From positions 845 through 64,844 of the forward strand of contig JAJFKO010000059.1 of NCBI GenBank assembly GCA_021773175.1: 64,000 nt of DNA. The letters are read 5' to 3'. The notes beneath the pieces are model-generated. The model made no database searches and was not told the origin of the DNA. It saw only the letters and a program-made list of their open reading frames with translations. The stretch's first letter is position 1. Each line of letters begins with the position of its first letter. Below, piece after piece: positions 17,595 through 53,622 of this stretch. The translations under genes and the position numbers were made by a program. This DNA is from Gammaproteobacteria bacterium. GTDB lineage: Bacteria > Pseudomonadota > Gammaproteobacteria > JAJFKO01.

Positions 17595-17796
17595 AAGTAA
17601 TTTCTTTAGCAGTCCAATCCGCATAAAAAAATGGACTGTGTCGATTCAACACTGGAAACCTGCGATGAATCACTTTATGAGCGAGTTCGAGGAGCAGCTA
17701 ACTCCTTATGTTTAGAGCGAGTACTTACACAGAATTATTTACAGGCTCATATGATCGAACCTATCTTTTAACCTCTCATTCTCAGCTTTAACAAGC

Positions 17797-18410: not shown

Positions 18411-18464
18411 TTTGCGTTGTGCAATATTGGAGGTTGGGCAGACCTAGCTTAATGGTAGATAGAT

Positions 18465-18833: not shown

Positions 18834-19589
18834 AATAGTGGTCCCCTTCAGTTAATATACCTTTGTCATTGGTATGCCCCAAACACGCCAGCGGCGCACA
18901 TAACAGCAGTTTAGTATTTGTTCGATGATTGACAGCATTCGTTTGTCGTTAATGCTCCTGGTAATGATGACCTCCATCATAACAAAAATATACGCGGTAT
19001 TTAATGCAGCTTTAGAGACAATCCGCAATATTTGCTTGGTATCATGATAGTGTTTTGTCTTCGAATGTGATCGCATGCTTCACCCTGTATTACTTACCAA
19101 AATTTGCTTTATATTGCTAATAATAGTATATATCTTTGTAAATTCCATACCGATTTGATCTACCTCCTCTTTCTGAAGCCCCCTATATTATATTGAGAAG
19201 CAAGCAAATTAATAATCAAAATATTTATTAGCATTTTTATCAAGCGTCTTTACAAATACTTTCTTCAATCTATAGAATAGCTACTAACGTTCTGAACACC
19301 CTGCTCTAGGTTCATTTAATCTATATTACTGGAACCTTCTTGTTAAGCGTTCGGGTGGATTAAGTCCTTAATGCAACAGCAAGCTACCAACTATACTAAA
19401 CTTATATAAAAACTTAAATTAAGATTCTATCTGCAGCAGCAGATAATCTTGAGATAGCCACTTGAAATATTCAAGATATTCAACAGAAGCCATAGCCTCA
19501 ATACCAACTGACAGGATTAAGTTAATGTTGTCTTAATAATTACCTGCATAAACTTTTACGTATACCATAGTTTTATTAGAGTTATAGAA

Positions 19590-34513: not shown

Positions 34514-37500
34514 TTAGAGCTTATTGATTATATCTGTAATTTCTTTTAATGCTTGGCCATGAAGGATAGTGTCATGTGTTGCGGATATTGTTTTTATTTC
34601 TAAGTGGTCAATCAATGATTTCCATCCATAATCATCATCAACTTTAAGTCTTTTAATAGGTTTTATGCTTGCTTCTTGTTTTGTTTCCTTCGAGGCTTTA
34701 ATTAATATTGTATCTCCATTATATTTTTCAGGCTTATAGTTCTGCAATAGATCTTTTGCTAATTTCCAATTATTCTTTATATGCTCTTTATATGTCTTAG
34801 GTAATAAATGCCATAGTGTGTTTATCTGTTGGATATGCTTTTCACTATATTGGTATATATCTAAACTATAATCTGTTGTTAAACAACTATCGACTAAAAG
34901 CAACTTCTTAACTGGTTGGTTTTCTTTTCGTAATTGTTGTGCCATTTCAAAAGCAATGACGCCTCCAAATCCCCAGCCTCCTAAACAATAGCTCTCAACA
35001 TGATTTGTATTTCTAATACAGCTTAAATAACGATTTGCAAGAGCTTTAATAGTTTTAATACATTGTGACGATTGAAATACAAAATCAGAATCAATGCCAT
35101 AAAAAGGAATATCTTCATTTATCGTCTTTGCTAGCTCAGCATAGACCTCTGCTCCAGAAGATATGGGGTGCACAAAATATATAGGAATTTTGCCACCAAA
35201 ATCATTATATTTTATTATAGGTTGGAACTTTGTGTTAATCTCGGCAGCACTAAATGCATGTATTTGAGAATTAATCGTAGCATGCTCAAATAACCATGCT
35301 AAATCATACTCTCTATTAAACATTTTGTTGATACACTCTAAGATTCGTATCGATAGTATTCTATTGGCACCCACCATATAGAAAGGATCTTTTGTACTAA
35401 AGTTTGAGTGGCCAAGGATTTCATACCATATCTTCGACAACTTATATTTTAAAGCAAACTCTTTATCCTTTGTTGCTGACAATGCCACTTTACTCGAAAA
35501 AGATAATTGTTGTTTTGCGGAAGAAGAAAGCAATATTTTTTGTTTATTTTGAAAGTGTTTTTTCAACTGAGAAAAGAGCGGCATTTCTATAATAGGTTTG
35601 TCTGAATAGCCGGCAAACAAACTAGACATTAAATCTTTAAGCGCCTTAAACACTGTTTTTATAGTGCCATCATTATATAAGCTATTATTATAAACCAACT
35701 GCATCGACAAACCTTCTCGATGCTCTACAAATCTAAAAACCAATTCTAGTTTAGTGATTAAATGATCGTCTTTAATTGGAGATAAAACAAAACCAGGCAT
35801 ATCGATTTCCGACTCAGTTGCAGCAAGAGTATAGTCGATAGCAACTTTATACAAAGGCAACGCACTCACACCACTGGACATTTTCAATCTCTCAAGCAAA
35901 ACTTCAAAAGGCACATCTTGATTGGCATAAGCTTCTAAACAAGTTTCTTTTACTTGACTCAATAAGTCAGAGAAAAGTAAATCTTTATTAAATTGAGCCC
36001 TAAAAGGTAAGCTATTTGCAAAAAAACCTACAATATTTCCTGTGTCAGGATAATGCCTATTTGCAACATTAGAGCCAACAACAACATCATCACTACCACT
36101 ACAAGCATATAATAATGACATTACACAGGAGAGAAAAAACATAAACGGTGTCACATTATGATTACTAACTATCTCATGTATTTTATTTTTTTCTTTGTTA
36201 TTTAACATAATTGAAAATTGACTTGCCAGAAAATTATCTTGCTTAACCTCTTTATGGTCACAAGGCACCGTAACTATATTGAAATTTTTTAATTTTTTCT
36301 GCCAATAATCAATTTGTGAATTAAAAACATTCTCAGATAGAAGTCTACGTTGCCAAAAGACAAAATCTTTATAGTGGTATTTTTGAGGGCTAAGTTCAGG
36401 CTCTTGGTTTATTATATATGCTGAATAGATCGCCTTTAATTCATTTAATATAATCTTAACAGACCAACCATCTGTGATCAGGTGATGTTGAGATATTACT
36501 AAAACATGTTTTTTGGCACTGAGGTTATAGAGTTTTAATCTAATTAATGGGCCATTTATCAAATCAAAAGGCGCATAAAAATCTTTTTTCAAGTGTTCCG
36601 GCAACTGTGCTTTTTTAACTGCAATCACATCTAATTTGAAACATTGATTTGTTACGACTTTCTGTCGAACTTGACCACCCCTTTCTATAAATACGGTATT
36701 AAAAGACTCATGCCTTGATAATATTTTGTCTAATGATTTTTCTAGTACAGCAATATTTACCTCACCATCTAGATTATAGGCATGAGGCATGTTGTAAGCT
36801 GAAAAATTCTTACCATAATACTGACTTAAAAACCAGATGCGTTCCTGAGATGTTGATAAAGAATATTCATTTTTTCTATCCTTGATAACACACATCTTAA
36901 ACTTATAACCACTTACATCAAAGAGATTGTTTCTAATATAACTTGCCATTTCATCAACTGAAGAATACTTAAAAACCAAGTTCACGGGAAAACGAATGCT
37001 AAAATGTTCTTGTATTAAAGAACATAATGTCATGGCCAATAATGAATTTCCGCCAATACAAAAAAATCCAACGCCTTTAGCTACTTTATTAATATCCAGT
37101 ACTTTACACCAAATTGTTAATACAATTTCTTCTATTTCATCATATTGGCTCGTTTCTCCGGTACCTATTTCATCCGCATTTATTTCAATAGCACTTAGAG
37201 CTTGTCTATTAATTTTTCCATTCGCTGTTAATGGAAATTGTTCTAATATCGCAACTTTAGATGGCACCATATATTCAGGTAATCTATCATGTAAGTATCG
37301 TCGTAATTCTTTACTGGTAACAGGTTGTTGCGTATTAGCTAAGACGATATACGCAATGAGTTGATTTTGGTTTTTATTCGAGGTAAGCACTTCGGCATTC
37401 TTAACTGCATCATGTTGACTAAGAGTAACTTTAATTTCATTTAGTTCAATACGGTAACCACGAACTTTCACTTGAAAGTCCACGCGTCCGATATATATAA

Positions 37501-40500
37501 CATCACCTGCATCAGACCATTTACATAAATCACCAGTCTTATATAAACGAACAGCTTGAGTGTTTGTACTAAAGGGATTAGGTATAAAAGACTGCTCGGT
37601 TAAGCTTTTATTATTTAAATATCCACGAGCGACACCCGCGCCACCAATATATAACTCCCCAATCACTCCCTCAGGTACAGGTTGTTGCATTTTATCTAAA
37701 ATATAGAGAGAAACATTCGCTAGCCCTTTACCAAGAGGTAAAGAATATTTTTGGTTATCGTCCCGCTTTAATTCATGTGTTATCGCCCCGATAGTGGCTT
37801 CTGTTGGTCCATAGTGATTGATGATGCGTAACTGAGGACTTAATGCTTGAATCTTTTTTAGTAAACATGGGCTGCTGCTTTCTCCTCCGAGTATTAATAC
37901 TTTCTTAGGCAATAAAGTAGGACCGTCATCAATACTGAGTAATCCTTCTAAATGTGACGGTGTTATTTTAAGACAATCTATATTATGAGTTCGCATATAA
38001 GTTGAGAAAGCTTGTCCATCAAGGCTATATTCATCCGTTAAAAAGTGTAAGGTTCCTGCTGACATTAGAGACATAAATAGAGTGGTATAACCTAAATCTG
38101 CCGCAAGTGTCGAGATATGAACAAAGCTTGTTTCAGAAGAGAATTCTAACCGTCGCTGTAATGCATGAGCATAATTGGTAACATTTTTATGTTCAATCAT
38201 AACTCCTTTTGGCTTACCCGTGGAGCCTGAGGTATAAACAATATAAGCAAGTTTATCTGATTGCACAGATGGTAAGGTCAGTTCTTTATATGAGCTATCT
38301 TGATGCTTGGCAATCTCAAGAATACTTATATATTCTACTTTCGTATGCTCACAAATTTCAGGTAAAGACGCAGGTTCTGCTATTAAAAATTGTGCATGAG
38401 CACTATTTAAAATATTTATCACTCGTTGTGCTGGAAATTTCAGATCAAATGGAATATAGGCAGCACCCGATTTCCAAACAGCAAGCATTGCAACAAGAAA
38501 TGCAACGGAACGTTCTAAAAGGATACCCACAAAAACTTCAGAGTCCTTATCGATGCCCAGAGCACGATGCCTGCTCATTAAATATTTAGCAAGAAGGTCA
38601 GAGCGTTTATCAAGCTCTGCATATGTGAGCTGCGACACAGCATCTACTACAGCTACCGCATCAGGGCAGGTCTGAGTATGGCTTTTCAACGATGCTAAAA
38701 GTGATACGTCCTTTATAGGTTGAGAATCGACTAGACTCCAATCATTTAAAATTAAATCATATTCTCCAGGACTTAATATCTTGTGACAAAGAATAGGTTG
38801 CTTTGGACTAGCTAGTGCTTCTTGTAGCAGCATAGCAAAATGGCCAGCCATATTAGCAATGGTTGACTCACAAAATAACGCTTTATCATAATTTATACTG
38901 CATGCTAATTTATCTTCTTTATCTATAATATCTAATGTTAAGTCAAACTTAGAAACCTTTAAACGTTGAGGATACTCTTCGACTTCGATGTCTGGTAATA
39001 ATAATTCCAATTGTTCGTCTTGTTGTTGCAAAACAAATCTCACTTGAAATAATGGCGTGCGTCGAGTATCACGAACGACCTCAAGTTCATCAACTAAATG
39101 TTCGAACGCAACATCTTGATGGCTATATGCTGCTAGACATGTTGACTTAACACGTTTTACCAACTCAATAAAATTAATATCACCAGACAAATCGCTTCGA
39201 ATCGCCAATGAGTTAATAAAGAAGCCCAGCATTGAAGCAACACTTTCTTGCTTACGGCTCGTGATCGGAGTACCAACAATAATGTCACTTTGACCACTAT
39301 ATCGTTGTAAAAGCATATTAAATGCAGCTAACATTACCATGAACAAGGTACTATCTGTCTCAGAACACAGTAATTTTACTGCCTCAACAATATTTTCATC
39401 CAATTCAAAATTATAGCTCTCACCCTCCGTTTTCTTTATTGCCGGACGAGGATAATCTGTAGGCAAATTCAATATAGGCATATTTGCTAACTGAGTTCGC
39501 CAATAATCAACTTGCTTTAATCTCTGTTCACTCGCTAAGCTTGACTGCTCCCATACCGCATAGTCAGTATATTGATATTGCAGTTCTGGGAGAGTTGGAC
39601 TCTGGTTCTTTATATACGACTGATAGGTTTCACCTAGCTCTTGAAGTAAAATTTGTAATGACCATCCATCCGTAGCAATATGATGATGATTAATTAATAA
39701 AACATAGTTTTTATCTGATAGCAGATAAAGATAAACTTTAATTATTGGCCCTGAACTGAGGTCAAAAGATTGATGAATATCTTTATGCAAAATAGCGTCG
39801 AGCGAGTTATTTTTAACATCCTTTTCAACAAACTCTATATCTACTTTTGCTTTAACAAATTGACGAGGAACACTCTTTTCCATGCCATAATGCGTTCGCA
39901 AAATATCATGCCGAGCTAATAGATAATCAAAACTTTTTTTCAACACAGCGGCATCTAACTCACCAAGCAAACGTATGACATAAGGGACATTATATGTTGA
40001 GCTAGATGAGGACTCATACGCATCTAAAAACCATAATCGCTGTTGCGCAGAAGAGAGCGGGTATGATGACGCCTTCTTTGCTTTTGTTAAAGTTGTTGTT
40101 TCATGTTGTTCTTGTGACACACTCTGATGGTCTTGAATATAACCTGATAATTCTGCGATAGTTTTATGACTAAACAGAATCGCAACGGGACAATCAATAT
40201 TAAAGTTTTTCTGTATTTTTAATGATAATTGTATTGCTAAAAGAGAATGTCCACCTAGTCTAAAAAAGTCATCATAAACACCAATTTTTTCAACAGTTAA
40301 AATATTTTGCCATAACTCTGTTAAGGTCTGCTCGGTTTTATTACGAGGTGCGGTATATTTTGCTTTAGATAATTTCCCCTTGTTTATTTCAGGTAGCGCT
40401 TTGTGATCTACCTTGCCATTAGCTGTAAGTGGTAAACTCTGCATTTTTATAATGACAGTAGGAATCATATGCTCAGGTAATCGCTCAGCTAACCATACTA

Positions 40501-43500
40501 ATAATTCATCAGTATCTAACATCTCAACTTCATTGTTATATACAACATAGGCAACAAGATGTGATGCATCACCAACTTTTGATAATAGTACTACAGCTTG
40601 ACTTACACTATCATGAGACTGTAACTCAGCCTCAATTTCACCTAATTCAACACGAAATCCGCGAATTTTTATTTGAAAATCCGAACGTCCAATATAATCA
40701 ATATTACCATCAGCTAAGCGACGGACAAGATCACCTGTTCTATAAAGTCGTAGATTACGTCCATCCTCAAGTTCCTCAGCTGTTAGAAAAGGATTATTAA
40801 TGAAACGTTCTTGTGTAAGCTCCTCACGATTCAAGTATCCTCGTGCAACACCAATACCACCAAGATATAGCTCACCCGTTATCCCAATAGGAACAGGACT
40901 TTTATCTCTATCTAGTATATAGGCGGTCGTATTTGAAGATGGTTTGCCTATGGGATAATGAGAAAGGCCTTCATGTTTGTCTCTAGAAATATTAAAGCCC
41001 GTTGATAAAGTTGTATTCTCAGAAGGTCCATATAAATTCAGCACTTGTACTTTGTTATTTTCTGGTATCTGTAACAGTTTATCAACAATTGCAGTATTTA
41101 CTGCCTCACCACCAAACATAATATATTTTAAACTAGAGAAAATTGTACTATCAAACAATACATATTCATGAAATAAAGCTGTAGTCATCACGATATGAGT
41201 CATATTATGTTGCGTTATAATATTTTTAAACCGTTCCGGATGTAATAAATCTTGTTTATCTATACAAACCATTGTGGCGCCATTCAGAAACCCAATCCAT
41301 AATTCAAAAGCTGCGACATCTGAGGAAATATTAGCAGCAAAAGCATAAACGTCCCCTTCTTGCATATCTATAAGGTGTTCTTCTTTTGCTAATGCAATGA
41401 CACTCTCATGTTCAATCATCACGCCCTTAGGAAGACCTGTTGAACCAGATGTATAAGAAATATAAGCAAGAGAAGAAGGTTTAGCAATATTAGGAGGTGC
41501 AGATTCAGGGCAGGCAAGAATGTCTGGCATTACTTGTTCAATAATAATAATTTCATTTTTAAGCTCATGTAGGAGCGCTAAAACATTAAATGTTTTTTCA
41601 TTTGTTATTAATAACTCTGCTTTTGTATCGTTTAACATATGTGCTAAACGTGCTTCAGGATAATTGAGGTCAAGAGGAACATATGCTGCTCCTACCTTTA
41701 ATATAGCTAATATAGAAATAATAAGGTCAATACTTCTTTCCATACAAAGAGCAATAAATGTATCAGGTTGAATGGCGACTTTCACTCTATCTTGATAACT
41801 TGTCCGTAAATAATTTGCCATTTGGTTAGCTTGCTTATCTAGCTCTGCATAGGTTAGAGATTTATTCTGATAAACAACTGCGATATTATTTGGATTGCGT
41901 TTCACTTGTTCTGCGAATAGTTCTGTAATATTTTTGGACTTTGGATAATCACTATTTGTCTGATTCCAACCATACAAAAGTTGCTCGCGCTCAATTGATG
42001 TTAACATTGTCAAACTAGCAATATTATCGGTCTTTCTCGTTACGACGTCTTGTAATAGTGAGGTGAAATGCCCTGACATTTGTGAAATCGTCACATTAGA
42101 AAACAGAGCTTTATCATAATTAAACCTACAACCAATTCGATTATTTTTCTCTGTAACACTTAATGTTAAGTCAAATTTTGCAACTTCAAGGCCTTGAGAA
42201 TAATCTTGTACCTCTACCCCAGGTAAGACTAATGTTGATAACTCATCAGCTTGTTCTAAAACAAACATAACTTGAAATAAAGGTGTACGACTTGTATCAC
42301 GCTCAATATTTAGAGTATCAACCAAGTGCTCAAACGCAATATCTTGATGACCATATGCTGATAAGCATGTTGCTTTTATTGTTTTAATATAGTCAATTGT
42401 ACTAATGTTTTCTGTGATATTACTACGAATTGCCAAAGTATTAATAAAGAATCCCAGCATCGTTGCGACACCATCTTGATGACGATTTGCAATGGGCGTG
42501 CCAACAACAATATCATCTTGCCCACTGTATTTATGTAGCAAAAGATTAAAGACTGCAAACAACACCATAAATAAAGTACTATCTGCTTCATCACACAATG
42601 ATCGTACGGACTTAACAAGTTCAGAGTCTAATTCAAAAAAACAGTTAGCCCCATCATATTTTTTCACTGCAGGACGAACATAATCTAAAGGTAATGTTAG
42701 GGTTGGCGCATCCAGTAGCTGTTCTTGCCAATAGCTTATCTGTTCAGAAAACCTTTTACTAATAGAGTTAGACTGCTCCCATGTAGCATAGTCAATGTAT
42801 TGATACTTTTGTTCAGGTAATTCAGGCATCCGCTCTTCAAGCAGTGCAGAGTAATACTCACTCAATTCATTTGTGATAATTTGTAAAGACCATCTATCAG
42901 TAATAATATGATGCTGGTTTATAAGTAGAATAAATTCATTATTGGCTAGAAAATATAAATATACCTTGAAGACAGGGCCATTGGCCAAGTCAAAGGGACT
43001 GTGTATAGCGGTGCGAGTTAATGCTATCGCATTCTTCTCATCCGTATGGATTTCCTCAAAAAAAACGTCGCATTTTTCATCTACACATTGATAGGTGGCA
43101 TCATCCTTAAATCCAAAATAGGTTCGTAATATTTGATGACGTTGTAGCAGAAGTACAAAACTTTGCTTAAGAATAGAAACATTTATTTTACCATGCAAGT
43201 GTACAATATAAGGAACATTGTAGGTTGCAGATGAAGAAGACTCATATGCATCCAGAAACCATAATCGCTGTTGTGCAGAAGAAAGAAGATATGAATCCGA
43301 TTTTTCTGCTTTTGTTATATTAATAATATTGTCTTTCACACTATTTTTATTAATACCACTCTTTATATGGGATGATAAATCAGCAACAGTTTTATACTTA
43401 AATAATATAGCAACGGGACAGTCAACATGGAAATATTGCTGTATTTTTAACGATAATTGCATCGCTAAAATAGAATGTCCACCTAGTTTAAAGAAGTCAT

Positions 43501-46500
43501 CATGAATTCCAACTTGCTTAACATTCAAGACCTCTTGCCATAGGTTTATTAAATTCACTTCCATTTCATCACGAGGTGCAGTATAGATAGATCGCGCTCT
43601 AAATGTATCCCATTCCGGTGCCGGTAATGCTTTCCTATCAAGCTTATCATTGGAAGTTAAAGGCAAGCTATCCAGTCTTATTATAACAGAAGGTACCATG
43701 TATTCTGGTAAGCACTTAGATAACCATGTTTGCAATTTCATGGATATCGCCATTTCTTTATTTATTGATTTTTTATTTAACACCACATAAGCGACTAAAC
43801 ATGCGACCTGATTATTCTCTGATAATATAACTACAGCCTGGCTAACATCTTCGTGTTGTTGTAATTTTGCCTCTATCTCACCAAGCTCTATCCTATACCC
43901 TCGTACTTTTACTTGAAAATCCATTCGCCCAACATACTCTATATTGCCATCAGGTAACCAGCGGCATAGATCTCCTGTTTTGTATAAAAGCAAATTACGC
44001 CCAGCAAGCTTATCTTCAGTACTTACAAATGGATTCGCAATGAAACGCTCGCTCGTCAATTTAGCTCTATTTAGATAACCTCGAGCCAGGCCTTCACCAC
44101 CAATATAAAGTTCTCCAACCATAGCAACAGGCAATAAATTTAAATTTTTATCTAAAACATATAATTGAGTATTAAAAATAGGGCGACCAATCGGCACAAT
44201 AGGTAGCTCATCTGAGCGCTCCTGCCGACAATTATAGATGCTCACTCCAATTGAAGCTTCCGTAGGTCCATAAAAATTATATAACGCAGCATCAAAACAC
44301 TGCGTAAATAACATAGCTAGTTCACTACTTAAAGCCTCTCCAATGACAAAAACTCTAGATAAGGATGTTAATTTCATACTCGCATTATCACGCAAGAAAT
44401 TTTTCACAAATGCATCAAGCATTGTGGGTACAAATTGTAATGTTGTGATTCTTTTTCTGTTAATCAACTCCATAAGATAGTGTGGGTCTTTATGCCCTTT
44501 CGGCTCCGCGATAACCAACTCCGCACCTGTAACGAGCGGCAAAAAAAGTTCCCAGACAGATATATCAAAACTGAATACGGTTGTCTGGAGCACACGATCG
44601 TCAGATGTGAAATTATATGCTCGCTGCATCCAAAGAAGCTCATTAACAATGCCTCTATGCTGCAACATCACACCTTTAGGATTTCCTGTAGAACCAGACG
44701 TATAAATGACATATGCTAACTGCTCAGCAGAAAATGGATCAAGATTATCTATAGGTTCAGCAGCGACCTCTGAGAGCTTCTCACTTATTAAAACTGGACA
44801 CGGAAGCTCATCAATCGAAAAAAGTTGTGATGCAAATTTTTCTTGGCAAAGAATTAAAACTGGCTGACTATCTTTAAGCATATAAGCTATACGTGATATT
44901 GGAAAGTCAGGATCAATTGGCATATATGCAGCATTAACCTGCATAATACTTAAAAGCGTAACGACTAAATCAAGATTACGCTCCATACACACGCCTATTA
45001 TAGAGTCTTTAGAGATGCCTTCCTTATAATGTTTGTGATACGTGTAATGCAATGCATTTGCTTTTAACATAACTTGCTGTTGTAATTCTGCATAGGTAAG
45101 CATTTCATCACGATAGCTTACCGCTATATTTTGGGGAGTTTGCGCTACCTGCTCTGTAAATAGCTCTACTATTGTTTTATCTCGAGGATAGCTTACAGAG
45201 GTGTCATTCCATTCAGTCAAAATCTGGCGACGCTCTTTTGCAGTTAATATATCAAGATTAGCAAGAGGCACTTGGGGATTTGCCAACAGGTTGGTAAAAG
45301 TCCTTTTGAACTGCTTTAAGAGAATGCCAATTGCTTCACTCTTAATTCGATTAGCGTCATATTGAATTTGTACAAATATGCCGTTATTTTTTGTAAAGTT
45401 GAAGCCTAGTGTGAAACTGTTTTTCTCATTGATCTTATAATTAGCAAAATCTGTGGATTGAATATAATCTGGATAATGTTCATAATTTGAAAAGCAATCA
45501 AATAACAAACGTTCATCACTGATATTTGAAAGTTTTTTAATGTCAGTAATACCAATTGCGGCATTGGAATTTACACTATGAATTTTTTGTTGTAATGCCG
45601 ATAAGAGGTCAATAATATTCTTATCATTATCCAGTGTCATGCGTAAAGGCAAGGTGTTAACTAGCAAACCAACAATTTTATCTGATTCCAACACTTCTGG
45701 AGGTCGACCAGAACAGACCATACCGAAAATAATGTCATCTGTATTTGTATATCTTGAAAATAAAGTCATTAATGTCATTTGCAGTAAAGTATTTAAGGTG
45801 ATTTTATAGTCTGCCTTAAATTTCACTGCTTTCTGTAAAACATTTACCGATAACTTCATTGACTTATCTTTAATAACTTTCACACGTTGAGAATGAGAGA
45901 TACCTTCCTTATAGCTAATGAATGGCAGTTGCATAGGAGAATTAAGACCTTCAACTTCAGATTTCCAAAATGCCATTACGCGATCCATGTTACTTGTGTG
46001 TAGCCATCGCAAATAATTATCATAGCTAGTAAGTTTTAAATTCGTATATTTTTCATTATTACAGTAGGCATGGTAGGCAGACATCACCTCTTTTTTAATT
46101 ATAGAAACACTCCAGCCATCCATAGTAATATGATGATGATTCCAAATGAAAACATACTTTTCATCTTCAAGACGAACCAAAAAAAACCGCATAATACAAG
46201 GTTCAGAAAGCATGAAACCCTTCTCTCGGTCATTTTTACATAATTTGCTCAATGCTCGATTGAGATTTTTCTTTGCGCGTTGACGCCAATCTAACACCAC
46301 CCAGGGGATTGTTGTATTCTTGTGAACAATCTGAATAGGCTCTGGTAAATTTTCCCATAGAAAAGAAAGTCTAAACACTGGATATCGCTGAATAATTTCT
46401 TGCCATGCTTGTTTAAAAAGATGAGGTTTACAGCTAGCCTCTAACTCCCATGATATTTGCACGCAATATTCATCAGAGATCGGTCCATAAAGATAGTGAA

Positions 46501-49500
46501 ATAACATCCCTTCCTGTATTGGACTTAAATAAGAAATATTCTCAACCTGATTCTTCTCAAAAATATGGTCTAATGTTTTTTGTGGAAAATCTCGTTTAAG
46601 TAGAAAGTCAGATGGAGTATAATAACGCTGGCTAGTATTGCAACAAGCATTAATAATATTTTCCAAATGAAATTCTAAAAGAGACAATAAATTATTAATT
46701 TCGTCAATTGAATACTGTTTAGTACTTGCATTAATTTGCAAACTAAATTTATCGTCAATAACCCATGATAGAAAATATAAAGAATGGATCGCTCTATTCT
46801 GTGGCGCTACTCTAAAGTTATCTAATGGTGATATCTTTTTATATAATGAGCTTGTTTTGATAACGCTATCAAGTTGTCCAATATAATTAAAGCAAATATT
46901 AAATTCTGGCTCGAAAGAAGCGTTATCATTATTTTGCTGTAAATAACGATACATTCCATAACTAAGTCCATTATCAGGAATATAGTGTAAAATATTTTTT
47001 ATATGCTTAATTAAAGAAAAGTAATCAGTCTCACTCTCAATTAAGCTACAAGGGTTTGTTAGAATAACAGGATACATCGATGTAAACCAACCAACCACAC
47101 TAGATACATCGATATCTTGAATACAATCTTCACGCCCATGACCTTCTAAACATAATCCAATCTTTTCTGTTTTTTGCCATGTACTATACGCAGCCACCAA
47201 GGCTGATAACAAAATATCATTAATATTTGTATTTATAAGCTTGTTGGCATCTTTTAATAACATTGTTGACAGTTTTTTACTTAATGTAAAAGTATAGGTA
47301 CCTGTATCTTCATTATTACTAGCATTATTTTTCTGAGCATGCTCTTGTGGAAAATCTTTCTCTACTGCTTGCCAGTAGTTAATCTCGTTCTCTTGCAGTT
47401 TGCTTGAACAGAACTTTAATAGAGCATCCTGCCAATCAAGAAAAGATTGAGTTTTGGCCGGAAAAGACAACGCTTTATTATCACACTGTAACTCATATAA
47501 AAAAGCAAAATCAGCAAATAAAACATGCCAAGAAATAATATCAACATATAAATGATGGATGGTTATATAAAGAAAATATTCCTTTTTAATATCATCATGT
47601 AATAAGCCTACTTGCAGAATGTCTCCATTCGAAATGTCTAACTGCTTATTCAGCTGACATACTATCTTATCAGTTTTCTGTTTTCTCAACTCTTCATTTT
47701 CTGCAGCAATTAAATGTTCATGTACCGACACATTGAAAATGTTGGTATTATTTTGGTAAGTTTGCAATATGTTACCGTCATCAAATCGAAAGCGTATTCT
47801 AAAAGTGGAGTGCTGCTCTATTAAAGCACAAATGATTTTTTCAACCTCAGGCTTCTTTAATTTAACTTTAGTTTCTAATAAGAAAGCCTGGTTATAATGG
47901 TTTTGGTTTAAAAGTTTTAATGAAAAGAAATGTTGTTGTATCGGTGATAAAGGGATATCACCTTCTTCGCATGAATTATGTATAACTAAATTTTTATTTG
48001 CATTTGTCGACTCTATAAATTTTGCTAGTTTAAAAACAGATGGATTGTCAAACACAAACTGTATTTGCAGACTATATCCTAATCGTCCAGCTCGAGAGAT
48101 AATTTGAATAGCAGAAATAGAATCACCACCCAATTCGAAAAAGTCATCATTTACAGAGATATTATCCAGCCCTAAGACCTCTTTGTAAATTTTTAGTATT
48201 TGTATTTCAATATCCGTCTCTGTATGTCCCTGTACTTCAGCTTTGTGCGTTTTGAATTTTTCTAACAGTTTTTTTCGATCTAGTTTGCCGTTGTTATTTA
48301 AAGGCAACTTTTCTAAAAAGATAATGCTCCCAGGAATCATATATTGAGGCAATATATCTTTTAAGTACTCTTTTATTTGTTGGAGGTCTAGCAGTGTTTT
48401 TTTATTAGTCAAAATAACATATGCGACTAAAACTGTTTTATCATTACGTTTAGCGCCGAGTACAACAGCATTTTTTATATCAGGATGAAGATTAAGAGCA
48501 TGTTCTATCTCTGTCAGCTCAACACGATAGCCTCGAACTTTAAGCTGGTAATCTTGACGCCCAATATACTCCACATTATTATCGGATAATACTCTAACAA
48601 GATCTCCAGTTTTATAAGCTCGCGTGGAGCCTTTCAAAAAGACACTATCTATAAAGGACTTTTTAGTTTCTTCTGGATTCTTCAAATAACCTCTCGCGAC
48701 ACCGTCTCCGGAGAGATATAACTCGCCAATCTCTCCTGATTTAACGGGTTTACGCTCTTCATCAAGCACATAAGCCTGCATACCATTTAAAACTTTACCA
48801 ATAGGAAGTGACTCTAAATATTTATTACCCTTTGTAAATGTAAAAGCCCCAATCGTTGTTTCCGTGGGGCCATAATGATTAATGATTTTTAATTTTGGCG
48901 ACAAATTGTGTAGCTTCATCAAAAGCTGTGGAGATGCGACCTCACCACCTAAAATTAATTGCTTATTAGGTAAAATTGCTTGTGGATTTTCACAATCCAA
49001 TAATACATTTAGATGAGAGGGGACTATTTTTACAACATCAATAGAGTGAGCATCCATTGTTTGTGCAAAAAGCATGGGATTATATGTTTGCTCTTCTGTT
49101 ATTAAAACTAATGTGTTAGCAGAACAAAGTGCCAGAAAAATATTGGTATAGCCTAAATCAGCATAAACTGGAGATAGATTTGCAAATTTCCCGCCTGGTT
49201 TTAATTTTAAAATGTCAGAAATAGCATTAATGTAATGGTTCAAATTTTGATGTTCAATCATCACGCCCTTAGGTTCACCCGTTGAACCAGAGGTATAAAT
49301 CACATAAGCCAAACTATCTATCGGTATGGTTATGTCCGGTGAGACATTTAAATTTGATTGTTCTCCATCATTTTTTTGAAGGTTCTCTATATACTCTACT
49401 TGACAATCTGCTAGAAAAGCTGAATTTTCATATTGATTACTTGTTAGCGCCAGCTTACATTCTGCTTGTTGTATTATAAAATCTAATCTTTGCTTTGGAG

Positions 49501-49810
49501 CATTGAGAGCAACAGGTAAAAATGCGGCTCCCGTTTTTAATACGCCAAGTAGAGCAATAATAAAATCAATATCTCTTTCAAAAACTAACAAAATAATGTC
49601 GTTGGCTTGTAAAGGATGCTTTACTATCGACTTGTATTGTTTGATAAGATTATACGCAACTTGATTAGCCGCAGAATTCAATTCATTGAACGTTAGCTGT
49701 CTATGGTTACAAATAACAGCAATTTTATCTGGGTAAATCGACGCTATTTTTTCAAATAGCCGGGAAAAACCTATATTACTGGTTGTTTTACCTCGATTGC
49801 CATCCTGCAT
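34514..49810 (-). CDS. non-ribosomal peptide synthetase, 5098 aa. Domains A1-T1-E | C2(DCL)-A2-T2 | C3(LCL)-A3-T3 | C4(LCL)-A4-T4 | C5-T*-TE*, with the terminal T and TE degenerate
   Basis: By motif. A cores: YTSGSTGxPKG at aa 172, 1703, 2785, 3859; A10 NGK/NDK. T serines: GGDS 561-564, GGHS 2110-2113, GGHS 3186-3189, GGNS 4253-4256. E motifs: PLSPIQQHFF 620, HHLYVDIISW 752, EGHGRE 889, VGWFTSMYPV 906. C motifs: HHHITMDGWS 1225, HHIITDRWS 2300, HHHIATDGWS 3375, HHLITDGWS 4442. Approx nt (±60): A1 48266-49753; T1 47996-48208; E 46631-47968; C2 45266-46543; A2 43625-45178; T2 43361-43573; C3 42011-43303; A3 40391-41938; T3 40136-40348; C4 38771-40078; A4 37196-38713; T4 36926-37138; C5 35576-36883. 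Confidence 0.95.
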   Translation of the reverse strand: MQDGNRGKTTSNIGFSRLFEKIASIYPDKIAVICNHRQLTFNELNSAANQVAYNLIKQYKSIVKHPLQANDIILLVFERDIDFIIALLGVLKTGAAFLPVALNAPKQRLDFIIQQAECKLALTSNQYENSAFLADCQVEYIENLQKNDGEQSNLNVSPDITIPIDSLAYVIYTSGSTGEPKGVMIEHQNLNHYINAISDILKLKPGGKFANLSPVYADLGYTNIFLALCSANTLVLITEEQTYNPMLFAQTMDAHSIDVVKIVPSHLNVLLDCENPQAILPNKQLILGGEVASPQLLMKLHNLSPKLKIINHYGPTETTIGAFTFTKGNKYLESLPIGKVLNGMQAYVLDEERKPVKSGEIGELYLSGDGVARGYLKNPEETKKSFIDSVFLKGSTRAYKTGDLVRVLSDNNVEYIGRQDYQLKVRGYRVELTEIEHALNLHPDIKNAVVLGAKRNDKTVLVAYVILTNKKTLLDLQQIKEYLKDILPQYMIPGSIIFLEKLPLNNNGKLDRKKLLEKFKTHKAEVQGHTETDIEIQILKIYKEVLGLDNISVNDDFFELGGDSISAIQIISRAGRLGYSLQIQFVFDNPSVFKLAKFIESTNANKNLVIHNSCEEGDIPLSPIQQHFFSLKLLNQNHYNQAFLLETKVKLKKPEVEKIICALIEQHSTFRIRFRFDDGNILQTYQNNTNIFNVSVHEHLIAAENEELRKQKTDKIVCQLNKQLDISNGDILQVGLLHDDIKKEYFLYITIHHLYVDIISWHVLFADFAFLYELQCDNKALSFPAKTQSFLDWQDALLKFCSSKLQENEINYWQAVEKDFPQEHAQKNNASNNEDTGTYTFTLSKKLSTMLLKDANKLINTNINDILLSALVAAYSTWQKTEKIGLCLEGHGREDCIQDIDVSSVVGWFTSMYPVILTNPCSLIESETDYFSLIKHIKNILHYIPDNGLSYGMYRYLQQNNDNASFEPEFNICFNYIGQLDSVIKTSSLYKKISPLDNFRVAPQNRAIHSLYFLSWVIDDKFSLQINASTKQYSIDEINNLLSLLEFHLENIINACCNTSQRYYTPSDFLLKRDFPQKTLDHIFEKNQVENISYLSPIQEGMLFHYLYGPISDEYCVQISWELEASCKPHLFKQAWQEIIQRYPVFRLSFLWENLPEPIQIVHKNTTIPWVVLDWRQRAKKNLNRALSKLCKNDREKGFMLSEPCIMRFFLVRLEDEKYVFIWNHHHITMDGWSVSIIKKEVMSAYHAYCNNEKYTNLKLTSYDNYLRWLHTSNMDRVMAFWKSEVEGLNSPMQLPFISYKEGISHSQRVKVIKDKSMKLSVNVLQKAVKFKADYKITLNTLLQMTLMTLFSRYTNTDDIIFGMVCSGRPPEVLESDKIVGLLVNTLPLRMTLDNDKNIIDLLSALQQKIHSVNSNAAIGITDIKKLSNISDERLLFDCFSNYEHYPDYIQSTDFANYKINEKNSFTLGFNFTKNNGIFVQIQYDANRIKSEAIGILLKQFKRTFTNLLANPQVPLANLDILTAKERRQILTEWNDTSVSYPRDKTIVELFTEQVAQTPQNIAVSYRDEMLTYAELQQQVMLKANALHYTYHKHYKEGISKDSIIGVCMERNLDLVVTLLSIMQVNAAYMPIDPDFPISRIAYMLKDSQPVLILCQEKFASQLFSIDELPCPVLISEKLSEVAAEPIDNLDPFSAEQLAYVIYTSGSTGNPKGVMLQHRGIVNELLWMQRAYNFTSDDRVLQTTVFSFDISVWELFLPLVTGAELVIAEPKGHKDPHYLMELINRKRITTLQFVPTMLDAFVKNFLRDNASMKLTSLSRVFVIGEALSSELAMLFTQCFDAALYNFYGPTEASIGVSIYNCRQERSDELPIVPIGRPIFNTQLYVLDKNLNLLPVAMVGELYIGGEGLARGYLNRAKLTSERFIANPFVSTEDKLAGRNLLLYKTGDLCRWLPDGNIEYVGRMDFQVKVRGYRIELGEIEAKLQQHEDVSQAVVILSENNQVACLVAYVVLNKKSINKEMAISMKLQTWLSKCLPEYMVPSVIIRLDSLPLTSNDKLDRKALPAPEWDTFRARSIYTAPRDEMEVNLINLWQEVLNVKQVGIHDDFFKLGGHSILAMQLSLKIQQYFHVDCPVAILFKYKTVADLSSHIKSGINKNSVKDNIINITKAEKSDSYLLSSAQQRLWFLDAYESSSSATYNVPYIVHLHGKINVSILKQSFVLLLQRHQILRTYFGFKDDATYQCVDEKCDVFFEEIHTDEKNAIALTRTAIHSPFDLANGPVFKVYLYFLANNEFILLINQHHIITDRWSLQIITNELSEYYSALLEERMPELPEQKYQYIDYATWEQSNSISKRFSEQISYWQEQLLDAPTLTLPLDYVRPAVKKYDGANCFFELDSELVKSVRSLCDEADSTLFMVLFAVFNLLLHKYSGQDDIVVGTPIANRHQDGVATMLGFFINTLAIRSNITENISTIDYIKTIKATCLSAYGHQDIAFEHLVDTLNIERDTSRTPLFQVMFVLEQADELSTLVLPGVEVQDYSQGLEVAKFDLTLSVTEKNNRIGCRFNYDKALFSNVTISQMSGHFTSLLQDVVTRKTDNIASLTMLTSIEREQLLYGWNQTNSDYPKSKNITELFAEQVKRNPNNIAVVYQNKSLTYAELDKQANQMANYLRTSYQDRVKVAIQPDTFIALCMERSIDLIISILAILKVGAAYVPLDLNYPEARLAHMLNDTKAELLITNEKTFNVLALLHELKNEIIIIEQVMPDILACPESAPPNIAKPSSLAYISYTSGSTGLPKGVMIEHESVIALAKEEHLIDMQEGDVYAFAANISSDVAAFELWIGFLNGATMVCIDKQDLLHPERFKNIITQHNMTHIVMTTALFHEYVLFDSTIFSSLKYIMFGGEAVNTAIVDKLLQIPENNKVQVLNLYGPSENTTLSTGFNISRDKHEGLSHYPIGKPSSNTTAYILDRDKSPVPIGITGELYLGGIGVARGYLNREELTQERFINNPFLTAEELEDGRNLRLYRTGDLVRRLADGNIDYIGRSDFQIKIRGFRVELGEIEAELQSHDSVSQAVVLLSKVGDASHLVAYVVYNNEVEMLDTDELLVWLAERLPEHMIPTVIIKMQSLPLTANGKVDHKALPEINKGKLSKAKYTAPRNKTEQTLTELWQNILTVEKIGVYDDFFRLGGHSLLAIQLSLKIQKNFNIDCPVAILFSHKTIAELSGYIQDHQSVSQEQHETTTLTKAKKASSYPLSSAQQRLWFLDAYESSSSSTYNVPYVIRLLGELDAAVLKKSFDYLLARHDILRTHYGMEKSVPRQFVKAKVDIEFVEKDVKNNSLDAILHKDIHQSFDLSSGPIIKVYLYLLSDKNYVLLINHHHIATDGWSLQILLQELGETYQSYIKNQSPTLPELQYQYTDYAVWEQSSLASEQRLKQVDYWRTQLANMPILNLPTDYPRPAIKKTEGESYNFELDENIVEAVKLLCSETDSTLFMVMLAAFNMLLQRYSGQSDIIVGTPITSRKQESVASMLGFFINSLAIRSDLSGDINFIELVKRVKSTCLAAYSHQDVAFEHLVDELEVVRDTRRTPLFQVRFVLQQQDEQLELLLPDIEVEEYPQRLKVSKFDLTLDIIDKEDKLACSINYDKALFCESTIANMAGHFAMLLQEALASPKQPILCHKILSPGEYDLILNDWSLVDSQPIKDVSLLASLKSHTQTCPDAVAVVDAVSQLTYAELDKRSDLLAKYLMSRHRALGIDKDSEVFVGILLERSVAFLVAMLAVWKSGAAYIPFDLKFPAQRVINILNSAHAQFLIAEPASLPEICEHTKVEYISILEIAKHQDSSYKELTLPSVQSDKLAYIVYTSGSTGKPKGVMIEHKNVTNYAHALQRRLEFSSETSFVHISTLAADLGYTTLFMSLMSAGTLHFLTDEYSLDGQAFSTYMRTHNIDCLKITPSHLEGLLSIDDGPTLLPKKVLILGGESSSPCLLKKIQALSPQLRIINHYGPTEATIGAITHELKRDDNQKYSLPLGKGLANVSLYILDKMQQPVPEGVIGELYIGGAGVARGYLNNKSLTEQSFIPNPFSTNTQAVRLYKTGDLCKWSDAGDVIYIGRVDFQVKVRGYRIELNEIKVTLSQHDAVKNAEVLTSNKNQNQLIAYIVLANTQQPVTSKELRRYLHDRLPEYMVPSKVAILEQFPLTANGKINRQALSAIEINADEIGTGETSQYDEIEEIVLTIWCKVLDINKVAKGVGFFCIGGNSLLAMTLCSLIQEHFSIRFPVNLVFKYSSVDEMASYIRNNLFDVSGYKFKMCVIKDRKNEYSLSTSQERIWFLSQYYGKNFSAYNMPHAYNLDGEVNIAVLEKSLDKILSRHESFNTVFIERGGQVRQKVVTNQCFKLDVIAVKKAQLPEHLKKDFYAPFDLINGPLIRLKLYNLSAKKHVLVISQHHLITDGWSVKIILNELKAIYSAYIINQEPELSPQKYHYKDFVFWQRRLLSENVFNSQIDYWQKKLKNFNIVTVPCDHKEVKQDNFLASQFSIMLNNKEKNKIHEIVSNHNVTPFMFFLSCVMSLLYACSGSDDVVVGSNVANRHYPDTGNIVGFFANSLPFRAQFNKDLLFSDLLSQVKETCLEAYANQDVPFEVLLERLKMSSGVSALPLYKVAIDYTLAATESEIDMPGFVLSPIKDDHLITKLELVFRFVEHREGLSMQLVYNNSLYNDGTIKTVFKALKDLMSSLFAGYSDKPIIEMPLFSQLKKHFQNKQKILLSSSAKQQLSFSSKVALSATKDKEFALKYKLSKIWYEILGHSNFSTKDPFYMVGANRILSIRILECINKMFNREYDLAWLFEHATINSQIHAFSAAEINTKFQPIIKYNDFGGKIPIYFVHPISSGAEVYAELAKTINEDIPFYGIDSDFVFQSSQCIKTIKALANRYLSCIRNTNHVESYCLGGWGFGGVIAFEMAQQLRKENQPVKKLLLVDSCLTTDYSLDIYQYSEKHIQQINTLWHLLPKTYKEHIKNNWKLAKDLLQNYKPEKYNGDTILIKASKETKQEASIKPIKRLKVDDDYGWKSLIDHLEIKTISATHDTILHGQALKEITDIINKL
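34517..35224 (-). other. degenerate thioesterase (TE*) domain of the NRPS: nucleophile position is Gly (GWGFG instead of GWSxG)
   Basis: aa 4863-5098. Codon GGA at 34970-34972, checked on DNA (…TTA GGA GGC TGG GGA TTT GGA GGC…). The second NRPS TE has GWSLGG at the homologous position. Confidence 0.7.
35261..35473 (-). other. degenerate carrier (T*) domain of the NRPS: Ser of the GGxS motif replaced by Arg (GANR)
   Basis: aa about 4780-4850: KYKLSKIWYEILGHSNFSTKDPFYMVGANRILSI. Checked on DNA (GGT GCC AAT AGA). Homologous to the T domain of the second NRPS (EYKLYRIWCHLLDQEKINFDEEFFACGGNSLLVI). Confidence 0.7.
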
Positions 49811-51795: not shown

Positions 51796-52069
51796 CGAAT
51801 ATACAGCTGTTACTTGTTTAAAATAATCACTATAACAACAAAAATGTTTGGTATGATTTTCGCATTTTGAGATTTCTGAATAACGATAACCGTCATCATA
51901 AGCTAATACTGCTTTTATGCGGTCATGGATCGCTCGCATCTTCATTGGTGAGAGCTATATATCCCAAGACATTTGAATAATGCATAAAAATGGGCTCAGG
52001 AAGTGGACAAGCTTCAATTTTTAGTCTAGATATTGATAATGATAGTTAAATAAATCAGAATAAATCAAT

Positions 52070-53443: not shown

Positions 53444-53448
53444 CTGTG

Positions 53449-53525
53449 TAGGACTTACGATAAATGATAACATCAGCTTGAGCCCTCTGGGTATAATAAA
53501 GAAATCGGTGTTTAGCATAAGTCCT
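53449..53525. repeat. 77-bp MITE-like copy between transporter paralogs B and C
   Basis: AGGACTTACGATAAA … TTTAGCATAAGTCCT terminal inverted repeats. Begins 6 nt after the paralog B stop. Confidence 0.5.
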
Positions 53526-53622
53526 AATTATATTATTGACAGGACTACTGCATTTAAAAAAGTAGACTAAATGCCATTCCTAATCTAAACTTTTACAATC
53601 ATAGTTTAATAATTAAATAAAT

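What the first reader, a model, noticed from the sequence alone, without database searches (positions are those of the whole stretch)
37196..49753. Predicted product features: free N-terminal D-Asp/Asn-type residue, second Asp at position 4; module 1 is A-T-E followed by a DCL condensation domain
The NRPS starts with an A domain and has no starter C, so the peptide should have a non-acylated N-terminus. Module 1 carries a textbook epimerization domain (PIQxxFF, HHxxxDxxSW, EGHGRE, VGWFTSxYPV). The next C domain has the DCL-type LSPIQEGMLFH N-terminus, consistent with a D-configured residue 1.

I aligned A1 and A4 by hand to GrsA-PheA and extracted the ten specificity positions. Both give D-L-T-K-I-G-H-I-G-K, one conservative change from the classical Asp code DLTKVGHIGK (Asn is DLTKLGEVGK). 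That points to two acidic (Asp-like) residues at positions 1 and 4.

A2 (tentative DIWQFIFIGK) and A3 do not match codes I recognise. C3 has HHIITDRWS, a Gly-to-Arg change in HHxxxDG.
Basis: partly seen in the sequence, partly recalled or inferred. Interest (0 to 1): 0.6.

Follow-up and report, generated by a model that had tools for sequence, protein, structure and literature searches.

The report
Orphan four-module NRPS, two Asp modules
This is an ordinary but previously unseen peptide-making enzyme (NRPS) that should build a short acidic peptide starting with an unmodified D-aspartate and carrying a second aspartate at position 4; its only odd feature is that its final release domains have lost their catalytic serines.

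Summary
One 15.3-kb ORF (34514-49810, minus strand, 5098 aa) reads A1-T1-E1 / C2-A2-T2 / C3-A3-T3 / C4-A4-T4 / C5-T5*-TE*.

- **Specificity codes.** Automated extraction against a verified GrsA reference gives A1 = A4 = DLTKIGHIGK, A2 = DIWQFIFIGK and A3 = DVFVMGLTLK.
- **Asp assignment.** Of the 120 nearest database relatives of A1, 111 carry DLTK-type codes, nearly all with the Asp-type His. Only two carry the Asn-type Glu, so Asp is favoured over Asn.
- **Domain typing.** E1 types as a true epimerase. C2 types as a DCL domain, and C3 and C5 as LCL.
- **N-terminus.** An in-frame stop two codons upstream of the ATG rules out a starter C domain.

The predicted product is therefore H2N-D-Asp–X2–X3–L-Asp. 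X2 is weakly Gln-like and X3 is probably small or aliphatic.

An intact fifth C domain is followed by a carrier domain with Ser→Arg and a thioesterase with Ser→Gly, so release is non-canonical or the enzyme is partly decayed.

The gene lies in a low-GC island between hisS and yfgM, next to three paralogous membrane proteins. No ortholog was found anywhere. It is a new member of a known kind, of modest interest.

The parts
34514..49810 (-). Single NRPS ORF, 5098 aa: A1-T1-E1-C2-A2-T2-C3-A3-T3-C4-A4-T4-C5-T5*-TE*
   Evidence: One stop in frame against 238-628 in the other frames. In-frame TAG two codons upstream of the ATG.
48206..49810 (-). A1 adenylation domain, code DLTKIGHIGK (predicted L-Asp)
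   Evidence: A4-motif ADLGYTNIF at 49136-49162.
47996..48205 (-). T1 carrier domain, LGGDSISAIQ core (the form seen before E domains, as in GrsA)
   Evidence: GrsA reference sequence verified.
46616..47995 (-). E1 epimerization domain: PIQQHFF, HHLYVDIISW, EGHGRE, VGWFTSMYPV
45221..46615 (-). C2 condensation domain, DCL type: LSPIQEGMLFH, HHHITMDGWS
43586..45220 (-). A2 adenylation domain, code DIWQFIFIGK (unassigned; nearest published code is Gln-type, 6/10)
43361..43585 (-). T2 carrier domain (GGHS)
41981..43360 (-). C3 condensation domain, LCL type, with HHIITDRWS (Gly to Arg, codon AGA at 42893-42895)
40361..41980 (-). A3 adenylation domain, code DVFVMGLTLK (unassigned; resembles small or aliphatic codes)
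40136..40360 (-). T3 carrier domain (GGHS)
38756..40135 (-). C4 condensation domain, LCL-like by its N-terminal motif (LSSAQQRLWFL) and 52% identity to C3; HHHIATDGWS
37166..38755 (-). A4 adenylation domain, code DLTKIGHIGK (predicted L-Asp). Only 38.5% identical to A1 overall, but 10/10 in the code and 29/34 in the 8-angstrom pocket signature
36941..37165 (-). T4 carrier domain (GGNS)
35531..36940 (-). C5 terminal condensation domain, LCL type, intact HHLITDGWS, with no A domain after it
35216..35458 (-). T5* carrier-like domain with GANR in place of GGxS (Ser to Arg, codon AGA at 35360-35362)
34517..35173 (-). TE* thioesterase domain with GGWGFGG (nucleophile Ser to Gly, codon GGA at 34970-34972). 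Asp and His of the triad are retained
50464..54996 (+). Three tandem paralogous multi-pass membrane proteins (443, 457 and 457 aa), transcribed divergently from the NRPS. Candidate exporters that share the low-GC island

Best explanation
The region encodes one linear, co-linear nonribosomal peptide synthetase.

- **Module 1 (A1-T1-E1)** activates L-aspartate, loads it on T1 and epimerizes the aminoacyl thioester.
- **C2**, a D-donor-selective (DCL) condensation domain, passes D-Asp to residue 2. A2 selects residue 2; its code is unrecognised and weakly Gln-like.
- **C3 and C4**, both LCL type, add residue 3 and then a second L-Asp. A3 is unrecognised and probably takes a small or aliphatic residue. 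A4 has the same pocket as A1.

The protein begins directly with the A domain, so the peptide amine should stay free: H2N-D-Asp–X2–X3–L-Asp-S-T4.

After T4 comes an intact LCL-type C5. It is followed by a carrier domain and a thioesterase that have both lost their catalytic serines. The usual acyl-O-TE release and a tethered fifth residue are therefore both excluded. The most likely route is that C5 transfers the tetrapeptide to a free nucleophile (an amine, an alcohol or water). This step is inference.

Shown here: the domain order, motifs, specificity codes, domain sub-typing and the missing serines. Inferred: substrates, stereochemistry, co-linearity, the free N-terminus and the release route.
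For: - **Architecture:**
- **Codes:**, with the GrsA reference verified.
- **Asp-type clade.** DLTKVGHI is the SrfAB-M2 Asp code, and DLTKIGHV is the code of the pyoverdine modules that place Asp (PMC3207962). Of the 120 nearest homologs of A1, 111 carry DLTK-type codes; 67 of these are DLTKIGHVGK and 5 match A1 exactly (one of them truncated before K517), and only 2 of the 120 have Glu322. A1 and A4 are 38.5% identical overall yet identical in the code, which points to the same substrate rather than a recent duplication.
- **E typing:**
- **DCL against LCL typing:**. In PDB chains 9rde and PvdL, E1 and C2 match the adjacent E and C domains of one chain in the same order.
- **No N-terminal extension:**
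- **Serine-less T5* and TE*:**. The background in 150 large NRPSs is Ser at 799 of 803 T cores, and Ser (29) or Cys (1) at all 30 TE nucleophile positions.
- **C5:** active-site motif intact and LCL-like.
- **Precedent for release by a C-terminal C domain in bacteria:** PMC5640695.
- **Open frame:** kept through the tail.
Against: - There is no biochemical or metabolite evidence.
- No ortholog could be found, so conservation of the codes and of the serine losses cannot be tested.
- Core motifs deviate in four places, which raises doubt about full activity. E1 has Ile and C3 has Arg at the Gly of HHxxxDG (Arg in 3 of 683 C-type motifs, Ile in 0 of 25 E-type motifs). The other two are T5* Ser to Arg and TE* Ser to Gly.
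- A2 and A3 remain unassigned.
- No phosphopantetheinyl transferase, MbtH-like protein or tailoring enzyme was recognised in the window.
Confidence: 0.7

Rival explanations
1. A1 and A4 activate Asn or a modified Asp (such as beta-methyl- or beta-hydroxy-Asp) rather than plain L-Asp.
For: The predictor class quoted in PMC3207962 groups Asp, Asn, Glu, Gln and Aad together.
Against: Position 322 is His, as in the Asp codes, not Glu. Of A1's 120 nearest homologs, 116 carry His there and only 2 carry the Asn-type Glu. No TauD/SyrP-type hydroxylase, glutamate-mutase-type gene or asparagine synthetase lies in the island.
Confidence: 0.12
2. The synthetase is partly or wholly inactive and in early decay, so no tetrapeptide is made or released.
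For: Four core-motif deviations occur in one protein: E1 Gly to Ile, C3 Gly to Arg, T5 Ser to Arg and TE Ser to Gly. All are rare or absent in a background of 150 large NRPSs. The gene is a lineage-restricted orphan.
Against: The 15.3-kb frame is fully open in 35%-GC DNA, where the other frames carry 238-628 stops. The 338-codon tail is open against 22 and 44 stops in its other frames. All four A domains, T1-T4, C2, C4 and C5 keep their canonical motifs. The E1 residues aligned to GrsA H753, D757, E892, R896, N975 and Y976 are all present.
Confidence: 0.2
3. The terminal C5-T5*-TE* is a working fifth module, or release goes through a partner acting in trans. Candidates are the neighbouring NRPS with a canonical T-TE, or a type II thioesterase encoded elsewhere. 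The product would then be longer than, or different from, a tetrapeptide.
For: C5 is intact. T5*-TE* aligns along its length with the canonical T-TE of the neighbouring NRPS at 60296-63988. A-less C-T-TE and C-T-C-T-TE proteins exist in the database (P0004, P0006, P0009, P0011, P0014).
Against: T5* has no serine to carry a substrate and TE* has no nucleophile. The neighbouring NRPS has its own C-A-T-TE terminal module and is separated from this gene by housekeeping genes.
Confidence: 0.15
4. The module-1 'E' domain is inactive or is really a condensation domain, so residue 1 stays L-configured.
For: HHLYVDIISW has Ile where E domains normally have Gly (0 of 25 in the background).
Against: All PDB matches are E domains. 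TIGR01720 scores above its cut-off. The residues aligned to GrsA H753, D757, E892, R896, N975 and Y976 are conserved. The downstream C2 is DCL type. T1 has the GGDSI core, as GrsA does.
Confidence: 0.05

Closest known systems
GrsA / TycA A-T-E initiation modules feeding the DCL domain of GrsB / TycB module 1
   Same: The module starts with an A domain and has the same A-T-E order. The carrier core is GGDSI. The E motifs match, and the residues aligned to GrsA H753, D757, E892, R896, N975 and Y976 are conserved (31% identity to GrsA E). A DCL-type C domain follows (TycB1 168 bits).
   Different: The substrate is predicted to be Asp, not Phe. E and the DCL domain are fused in one polypeptide rather than split across two proteins. 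The E-domain His motif has Ile in place of Gly.
Asp-activating A domains: SrfA-B module 2 (DLTKVGHI) and the P. syringae pyoverdine Asp modules (DLTKIGHV)
   Same: The 8-residue code DLTKIGHI differs from each by one conservative Ile/Val change. Every residue in it is found in one or the other (PMC3207962). Nearest database relatives are overwhelmingly DLTK(I/V)GH(V/I)GK.
   Different: The nearest homologs are only 37-44% identical to A1. The exact 10-residue string was not found in the searchable literature. The pyoverdine Asp residues are beta-hydroxylated, and no hydroxylase is present here.
Chain release by a C-terminal condensation domain (crocacin, FK520, C-1027; frequent in Legionella clusters)
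   Same: An intact C domain follows the last loaded carrier and no usable thioesterase is present. PMC5640695 reports C-domain termination in 9 of 33 Legionella clusters.
   Different: Here the C domain is not the last domain. It is followed by a serine-less carrier and a serine-less thioesterase. No acceptor substrate can be named, and membership was not tested biochemically.
A-less terminal C-T-TE modules loaded in trans (for example SyrE module 9; recalled from memory, not tested here)
   Same: C-T-TE order with no A domain. Database proteins with C-T-(C-T)-TE architecture align over 74-87% of the T4-C5-T5*-TE* query.
   Different: Those have a carrier serine and a Ser or Cys nucleophile. 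This one has neither, so trans-loading is impossible.

Membership tests
Type I modular NRPS | Repeated A (AMP-binding), T (PP-binding) and C (Condensation) domains in one polypeptide, with core motifs A3, A5, A8 and A10 | tested here: met
   Pfam finds 4 A, 4 T and 5 C-type domains. SGSTGxPKG, GRxDxQxKxRG and the A10 Lys motif each occur 4 times (NGK in three domains, NDK in A2).
Type I modular NRPS | Phosphopantetheine-accepting Ser in every carrier domain | tested here: not met
   T1-T4 have GG(D/H/N)S. The fifth carrier-like domain has GANR. The background is Ser in 799 of 803.
Type I modular NRPS | Terminal thioesterase with a GxSxG nucleophile | tested here: not met
   PF00975 matches at E = 7.7e-17, but the motif is GWGFG. 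Aligned homologs have Ser or Cys, and the background is 29 Ser and 1 Cys out of 30.
NRPS epimerization (E) domain | E-specific sequence signature (TIGR01720 region) and closest similarity to characterised E domains | tested here: met
   TIGR01720 scores 75.8 bits against a 74.2 cut-off. All 10 PDB hits are E domains: BacC, GrsA, TycA, TycB and PvdL.
NRPS epimerization (E) domain | Residues corresponding to GrsA H753, D757, E892, N975 and Y976. The list of essential residues is recalled from Stachelhaus & Walsh 2000. | tested here: met
   All are conserved in the pairwise alignment. The Gly after D757 is Ile.
NRPS epimerization (E) domain | Epimerase activity on the aminoacyl-S-T substrate | not testable with these tools
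   Needs an enzyme assay or chiral analysis of the product.
DCL condensation subtype | DCL-type N-terminal motif, and greater similarity to C domains that accept D-donors than to LCL domains | tested here: met
   LSPIQEGMLFH is present. Scores are McyB-C1 256, BacC C-after-E 192, SrfA-C 175, TycB1 168 and PvdL C-after-E 165 bits, against 64 bits or less for LCL domains. C3 and C5 show the opposite ranking.
DCL condensation subtype | Not a dual E/C domain (no second His motif near the N-terminus; criterion recalled from Balibar 2005) | tested here: met
   The only HH in C2 is the canonical WNHHHITMDGWS (direct reading). A separate E domain precedes it.
Asp-specific adenylation domain | Specificity code DLTK(V/I)GH(I/V)GK, with His at position 322 | tested here: met
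   A1 = A4 = DLTKIGHIGK. Reference codes are in PMC3207962. 111 of 120 neighbours are DLTK-type, and only 2 of the 120 have Glu322.
Asp-specific adenylation domain | Preferential adenylation of L-Asp | not testable with these tools
   Needs ATP-PPi exchange. NRPSpredictor2 and SANDPUMA were not available.
Release by a terminal condensation domain | A catalytically intact C domain after the last loaded carrier, with no functional TE or reductase | tested here: met
   C5 has HHLITDGWS. TE* lacks a nucleophile. No reductase domain was found.
Release by a terminal condensation domain | Demonstrated transfer of the chain to a free nucleophile | not testable with these tools
   Needs in vitro reconstitution or the product structure.

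The most novel reading that the evidence does not exclude
The assembly line is active. It releases its D-Asp–X–X–Asp chain without any thioesterase chemistry. The intact terminal C5 would hand the peptide to a free nucleophile, or the C-terminal Asp thioester would self-cleave through its side-chain anhydride. The serine-less carrier and thioesterase would be kept as a structural or docking scaffold. That would be an undescribed termination architecture (C-T°-TE°) in a deep-branching gammaproteobacterium with no sequenced relatives.
Probability: 0.2. Interest if true: 0.5.

Novelty: new member of a known kind. Interest (0 to 1): 0.3.

Why it matters
The finding is a sound and testable structure prediction for an orphan NRPS: a free-amine D-Asp1, an L-Asp4 and two unknown residues. 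That helps anyone who wants to look for the metabolite by mass spectrometry or to express the gene.

It does not change what is known about NRPS logic. A-T-E initiation, DCL gating and the Asp code are textbook.

An open, apparently maintained C-T-TE tail has lost both catalytic serines. If the enzyme is active, it must use an unusual release route.

The gene has no detectable ortholog in very large public collections, and its host lineage is poorly sampled. The product would probably be a new compound, though likely a small acidic peptide of unknown role.

Tried and rejected
1. **LgrA false lead.** The top PDB hit for A1 was LgrA (506 bits), which briefly suggested a Gly-type domain. The alignment showed the score is the sum of two separate A-domain matches (229 + 275 bits), and LgrA-A2 has an FDISV pocket. 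Rejected; per domain, GrsA (302 bits) scores higher than either LgrA match.

2. **Ortholog searches.** None found anything closer than about 30-44% identity.
   - The genome-contig scan with the NRPS found no relative.
   - The metagenome-contig scan found only 32-38% relatives.
   - The 5.8-billion-protein search with T4-C5-tail gave 35% identity or less, and all listed hits were 1545 aa or shorter.
   - The 1.84-billion-representative search gave 32% or less and was dominated by giant multi-C NRPSs.
   - Two searches with the near-full-length protein failed on length or time.

3. **Source organism.** Exact look-ups of three window proteins found nothing. The Der protein is a nameless NCBI singleton on a 74.7-kb contig, and the next best Der is 59-60% identical. 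HisS is at best 61-62% identical to Methylococcales and others. The organism is unresolved beyond 'gammaproteobacterium'.

4. **Literature searches for the codes.** There was no hit for DLTKIGHIGK, DIWQFIFIGK, DVFVMGLTLK or DAYLLGCTIK. Partial strings gave only DIWQFGLILK in Collimonas cplA, which its authors considered Gln-like.

5. **MbtH-like motif scan** of all six frames: none.

6. **Rfam and tRNA scans** of the window: only one tRNA-Arg, which is irrelevant.

7. **NCBIfam on the three membrane paralogs:** nothing.
Full report
**Observation.** The window holds one very long ORF on the minus strand, 34514..49810, 5098 aa. The finding's coordinates (37196-49753) run from the first residues of the first adenylation domain to the end of the fourth.

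| Motif | Residue |
|---|---|
| PIQQHFF | aa 623 |
| HHLYVDIISW | aa 752 |
| EGHGRE | aa 889 |
| VGWFTSMYPV | aa 906 |
| LSPIQEGMLFH | aa 1095 |
| HHIITDRWS | aa 2300 |

The frame has a single, terminal stop, while the other five frames over the same 15.3 kb have 238-628 stops. It is a real gene, not a chance ORF.

**Architecture.** Pfam finds four AMP-binding domains, four PP-binding domains, five Condensation-type domains and one Thioesterase domain. Motif positions give the order A1-T1-E1 / C2-A2-T2 / C3-A3-T3 / C4-A4-T4 / C5-T5*-TE*.

A1 aligns to GrsA-PheA from its residue 16. The codon two positions upstream of the ATG is an in-frame TAG, and it is followed by about 650 nt of AT-rich intergenic DNA up to a divergently transcribed gene. 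There is no room for a starter C, formylation or acyl-ligase domain. The only other NRPS gene in the window (60296..63988) ends in its own T-TE and lies beyond several housekeeping genes, so it does not feed this one.

**Specificity codes.** I wrote out the GrsA sequence from memory and checked it against the PDB. It matches 1amu_A in register (1-557 to 1-557, 1258 bits) and 5isw nearly residue for residue. It also returns its own published code DAWTIAAICK at positions 235, 236, 239, 278, 299, 301, 322, 330, 331 and 517.

A MAFFT alignment of the four A domains to it gives:

| Domain | Code |
|---|---|
| A1 | DLTKIGHIGK |
| A2 | DIWQFIFIGK |
| A3 | DVFVMGLTLK |
| A4 | DLTKIGHIGK |

A1 and A4 are only 38.5% identical overall, but they agree at 10 of 10 code positions and 29 of 34 positions of the 8-angstrom pocket signature. 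That is what selection for one substrate looks like, not a recent duplication.

**Asp or Asn.** A published table lists SrfAB-M2-Asp as DLTKVGHI. It lists DLTKIGHV for the two P. syringae pyoverdine modules that place Asp (PMC3207962). The code here, DLTKIGHI, is one conservative Ile/Val step from each.

I also extracted the codes of the 120 best database homologs of A1, which are 37-44% identical. Of these, 111 are DLTK-type: DLTKIGHVGK occurs 67 times, and five match A1 exactly (one of them truncated before K517). Across all 120, 116 have His at position 322 and only two have the Asn-type Glu. A1 thus sits in the Asp-type clade by overall similarity as well as by pocket residues. I take Asp as clearly favoured over Asn. 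There is no biochemical proof.

**E and DCL typing.**
- *E1.* It matches only epimerization domains in the PDB: BacC, GrsA, TycA, TycB and PvdL, at 168-207 bits. It passes the curated cut-off of the E-specific model TIGR01720. It conserves the residues aligned to GrsA H753, D757, E892, R896, N975 and Y976.
- *T1.* It carries the LGGDSIxAIQ core also seen in GrsA, whereas T2 and T3 have LGGHS.
- *C2.* Its best matches are C domains that follow an E domain or accept a D-residue: McyB-C1 256, BacC 192, SrfA-C 175, TycB1 168 and PvdL 165 bits. LCL domains such as LgrA-C2 and TycC6 score 64 bits or less.
- *E1 and C2 together.* In the BacC and PvdL chains they match the adjacent E and C domains in the same order.
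- *C3 and C5.* They show the opposite ranking, with TycC6, Txo1/2 and the fuscachelin PCP-C on top. They carry the LCL-type SxAQxRLWFL start.

**A2 and A3.** Neither code, nor long substrings of either, appears in the searchable literature. The nearest published string to A2 is DIWQFGLILK of Collimonas CplA, which its authors compared to the Gln code DAWQFGLIDK (PMC8313283). A2 shares 6 of 10 positions with that Gln code.

A3 belongs to the 'NxYGPSENTT' type. From memory, it shares 5 of 10 positions with Ala, Val and Ile codes. Both assignments are weak.

**Deviating core motifs.** C3 has Arg (AGA, one transition from GGA) at the Gly of HHxxxDG. E1 has Ile at the same place. In 150 large NRPSs retrieved, that position is Gly in 586 of 683 C-type motifs and Arg in 3. 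It is Gly in 21 of 25 E-type motifs and never Ile. These changes are rare but not unprecedented, and their effect is unknown.

After T4 comes a fifth C domain with an intact HHLITDGWS. No A domain follows. Next is a segment that aligns along its length with carrier domains but reads GANR where GGxS should be (Ser to Arg). Then comes a PF00975 thioesterase (E = 7.7e-17) reading GGWGFGG, where the aligned homologs have Ser or Cys. The Asp and His of the triad are kept. Those homologs include the canonical T-TE of the neighbouring NRPS.

In the background set, Ser occupies 799 of 803 carrier cores. The TE nucleophile is Ser 29 times and Cys once, out of 30. The Ser-to-Gly change needs two nucleotide changes, so a single sequencing error is unlikely. 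The 338-codon tail is still open, against 22 and 44 stops in its other frames.

A tethered fifth residue and acyl-O-TE release are therefore both excluded. The most economical reading is release by C5 to a free nucleophile. Bacterial precedents exist: crocacin, FK520, C-1027, and 9 of 33 Legionella clusters (PMC5640695). Alternatives are a trans-acting thioesterase, self-cleavage of the C-terminal Asp thioester through its anhydride (my speculation), or early decay of the gene.

**Context.** The NRPS and three divergently transcribed, tandemly duplicated multi-pass membrane proteins form a 20.5-kb block.
- The membrane proteins are 39-65% identical to one another. Their only family signal is a sub-threshold MOP/Polysacc_synt match.
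- The block has 32-35% GC, and its flanks have about 40%.
- The block lies between hisS and yfgM-bamB-der, which are housekeeping genes.
- No tailoring enzyme, MbtH-like protein, PPTase, TonB receptor or regulator is in the block.
- No ortholog of the NRPS was found in any collection.
- The host's Der and HisS are only about 60% identical to their nearest relatives. The lineage is a poorly sampled gammaproteobacterium.

**Verdict.** The gene is a co-linear four-module NRPS predicted to make H2N-D-Asp–X2–X3–L-Asp. It has textbook A-T-E then DCL logic and two Asp-code A domains. It is a new member of a known kind.

The finding itself is routine natural-product bioinformatics. The only unusual element is the serine-less T-TE behind an intact terminal C domain, and that cannot be resolved without orthologs or experiments. 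Interest is modest.

Noticed in passing
window 34517-35530 (aa 4761-5098 of the NRPS): The carrier-like domain has Ser to Arg (GANR) and the thioesterase has Ser to Gly (GWGFGG). Both sit behind an intact fifth C domain with no A domain. The frame is still open.
   Followed up: yes
window 50464-51795, 52070-53443, 53623-54996 (+): Three tandem paralogous membrane proteins of about 12 TM helices, 39-65% identical, all ending in ...LKTFFI(I/L). Only the first gives a sub-threshold Pfam Polysacc_synt (MOP flippase) hit, and none hits NCBIfam. They share the low-GC island with the NRPS and may be exporters.
   Followed up: partly
window 34350-55007: The NRPS plus the three membrane-protein genes form a 20.5-kb block of 32-35% GC between hisS and yfgM-bamB-der, whose flanks are about 40% GC. 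No integrase, tRNA or flanking repeat was examined.
   Followed up: partly
window 60296-63988 (-): A second NRPS gene, cut by the window end: C-A-T-TE with code DAYLLGCTIK and canonical GGNS and GGWSLGG motifs. Its A domain is 49.6% identical to A3 and its C domain is closest to the DCL-type C2 (31.7%). Its T-TE is the best local homolog of the degenerate tail.
   Followed up: partly
window 42893-42895 and 47537-47539: C3 has Arg and E1 has Ile at the Gly of HHxxxDG. In a background of large NRPSs, Arg occurs in 3 of 683 C-type motifs and Ile in 0 of 25 E-type motifs.
   Followed up: yes
window 538-1908, 3071-4498, 4426-5817 (-): Three paralogous GT87-family glycosyltransferase genes are interleaved with mltG/yceG, directly downstream of the plsX-fabD-fabG-fabF fatty-acid operon.
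   Followed up: no
window 13055-13897 (-): A 280-aa protein combines a shikimate-kinase-like (SKI) domain with a C-terminal LuxR/GerE helix-turn-helix. This is an unusual fusion.
   Followed up: no
window 17000-21160: A gene-poor stretch with short ORFs, an IS3-type OrfA fragment (18168-18293) and a transposase-like HTH_38/HTH_23 protein (20349-21158). It is probably IS debris.
   Followed up: no
window 31091-32500 (-): The Der GTPase of this window is present in the protein collection as a nameless NCBI singleton on a 74,687-bp contig, and the next best Der is 59-60% identical. The host is a deep-branching, poorly sampled gammaproteobacterium. ispG is absent from its usual place between rodZ and hisS.
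   Followed up: partly
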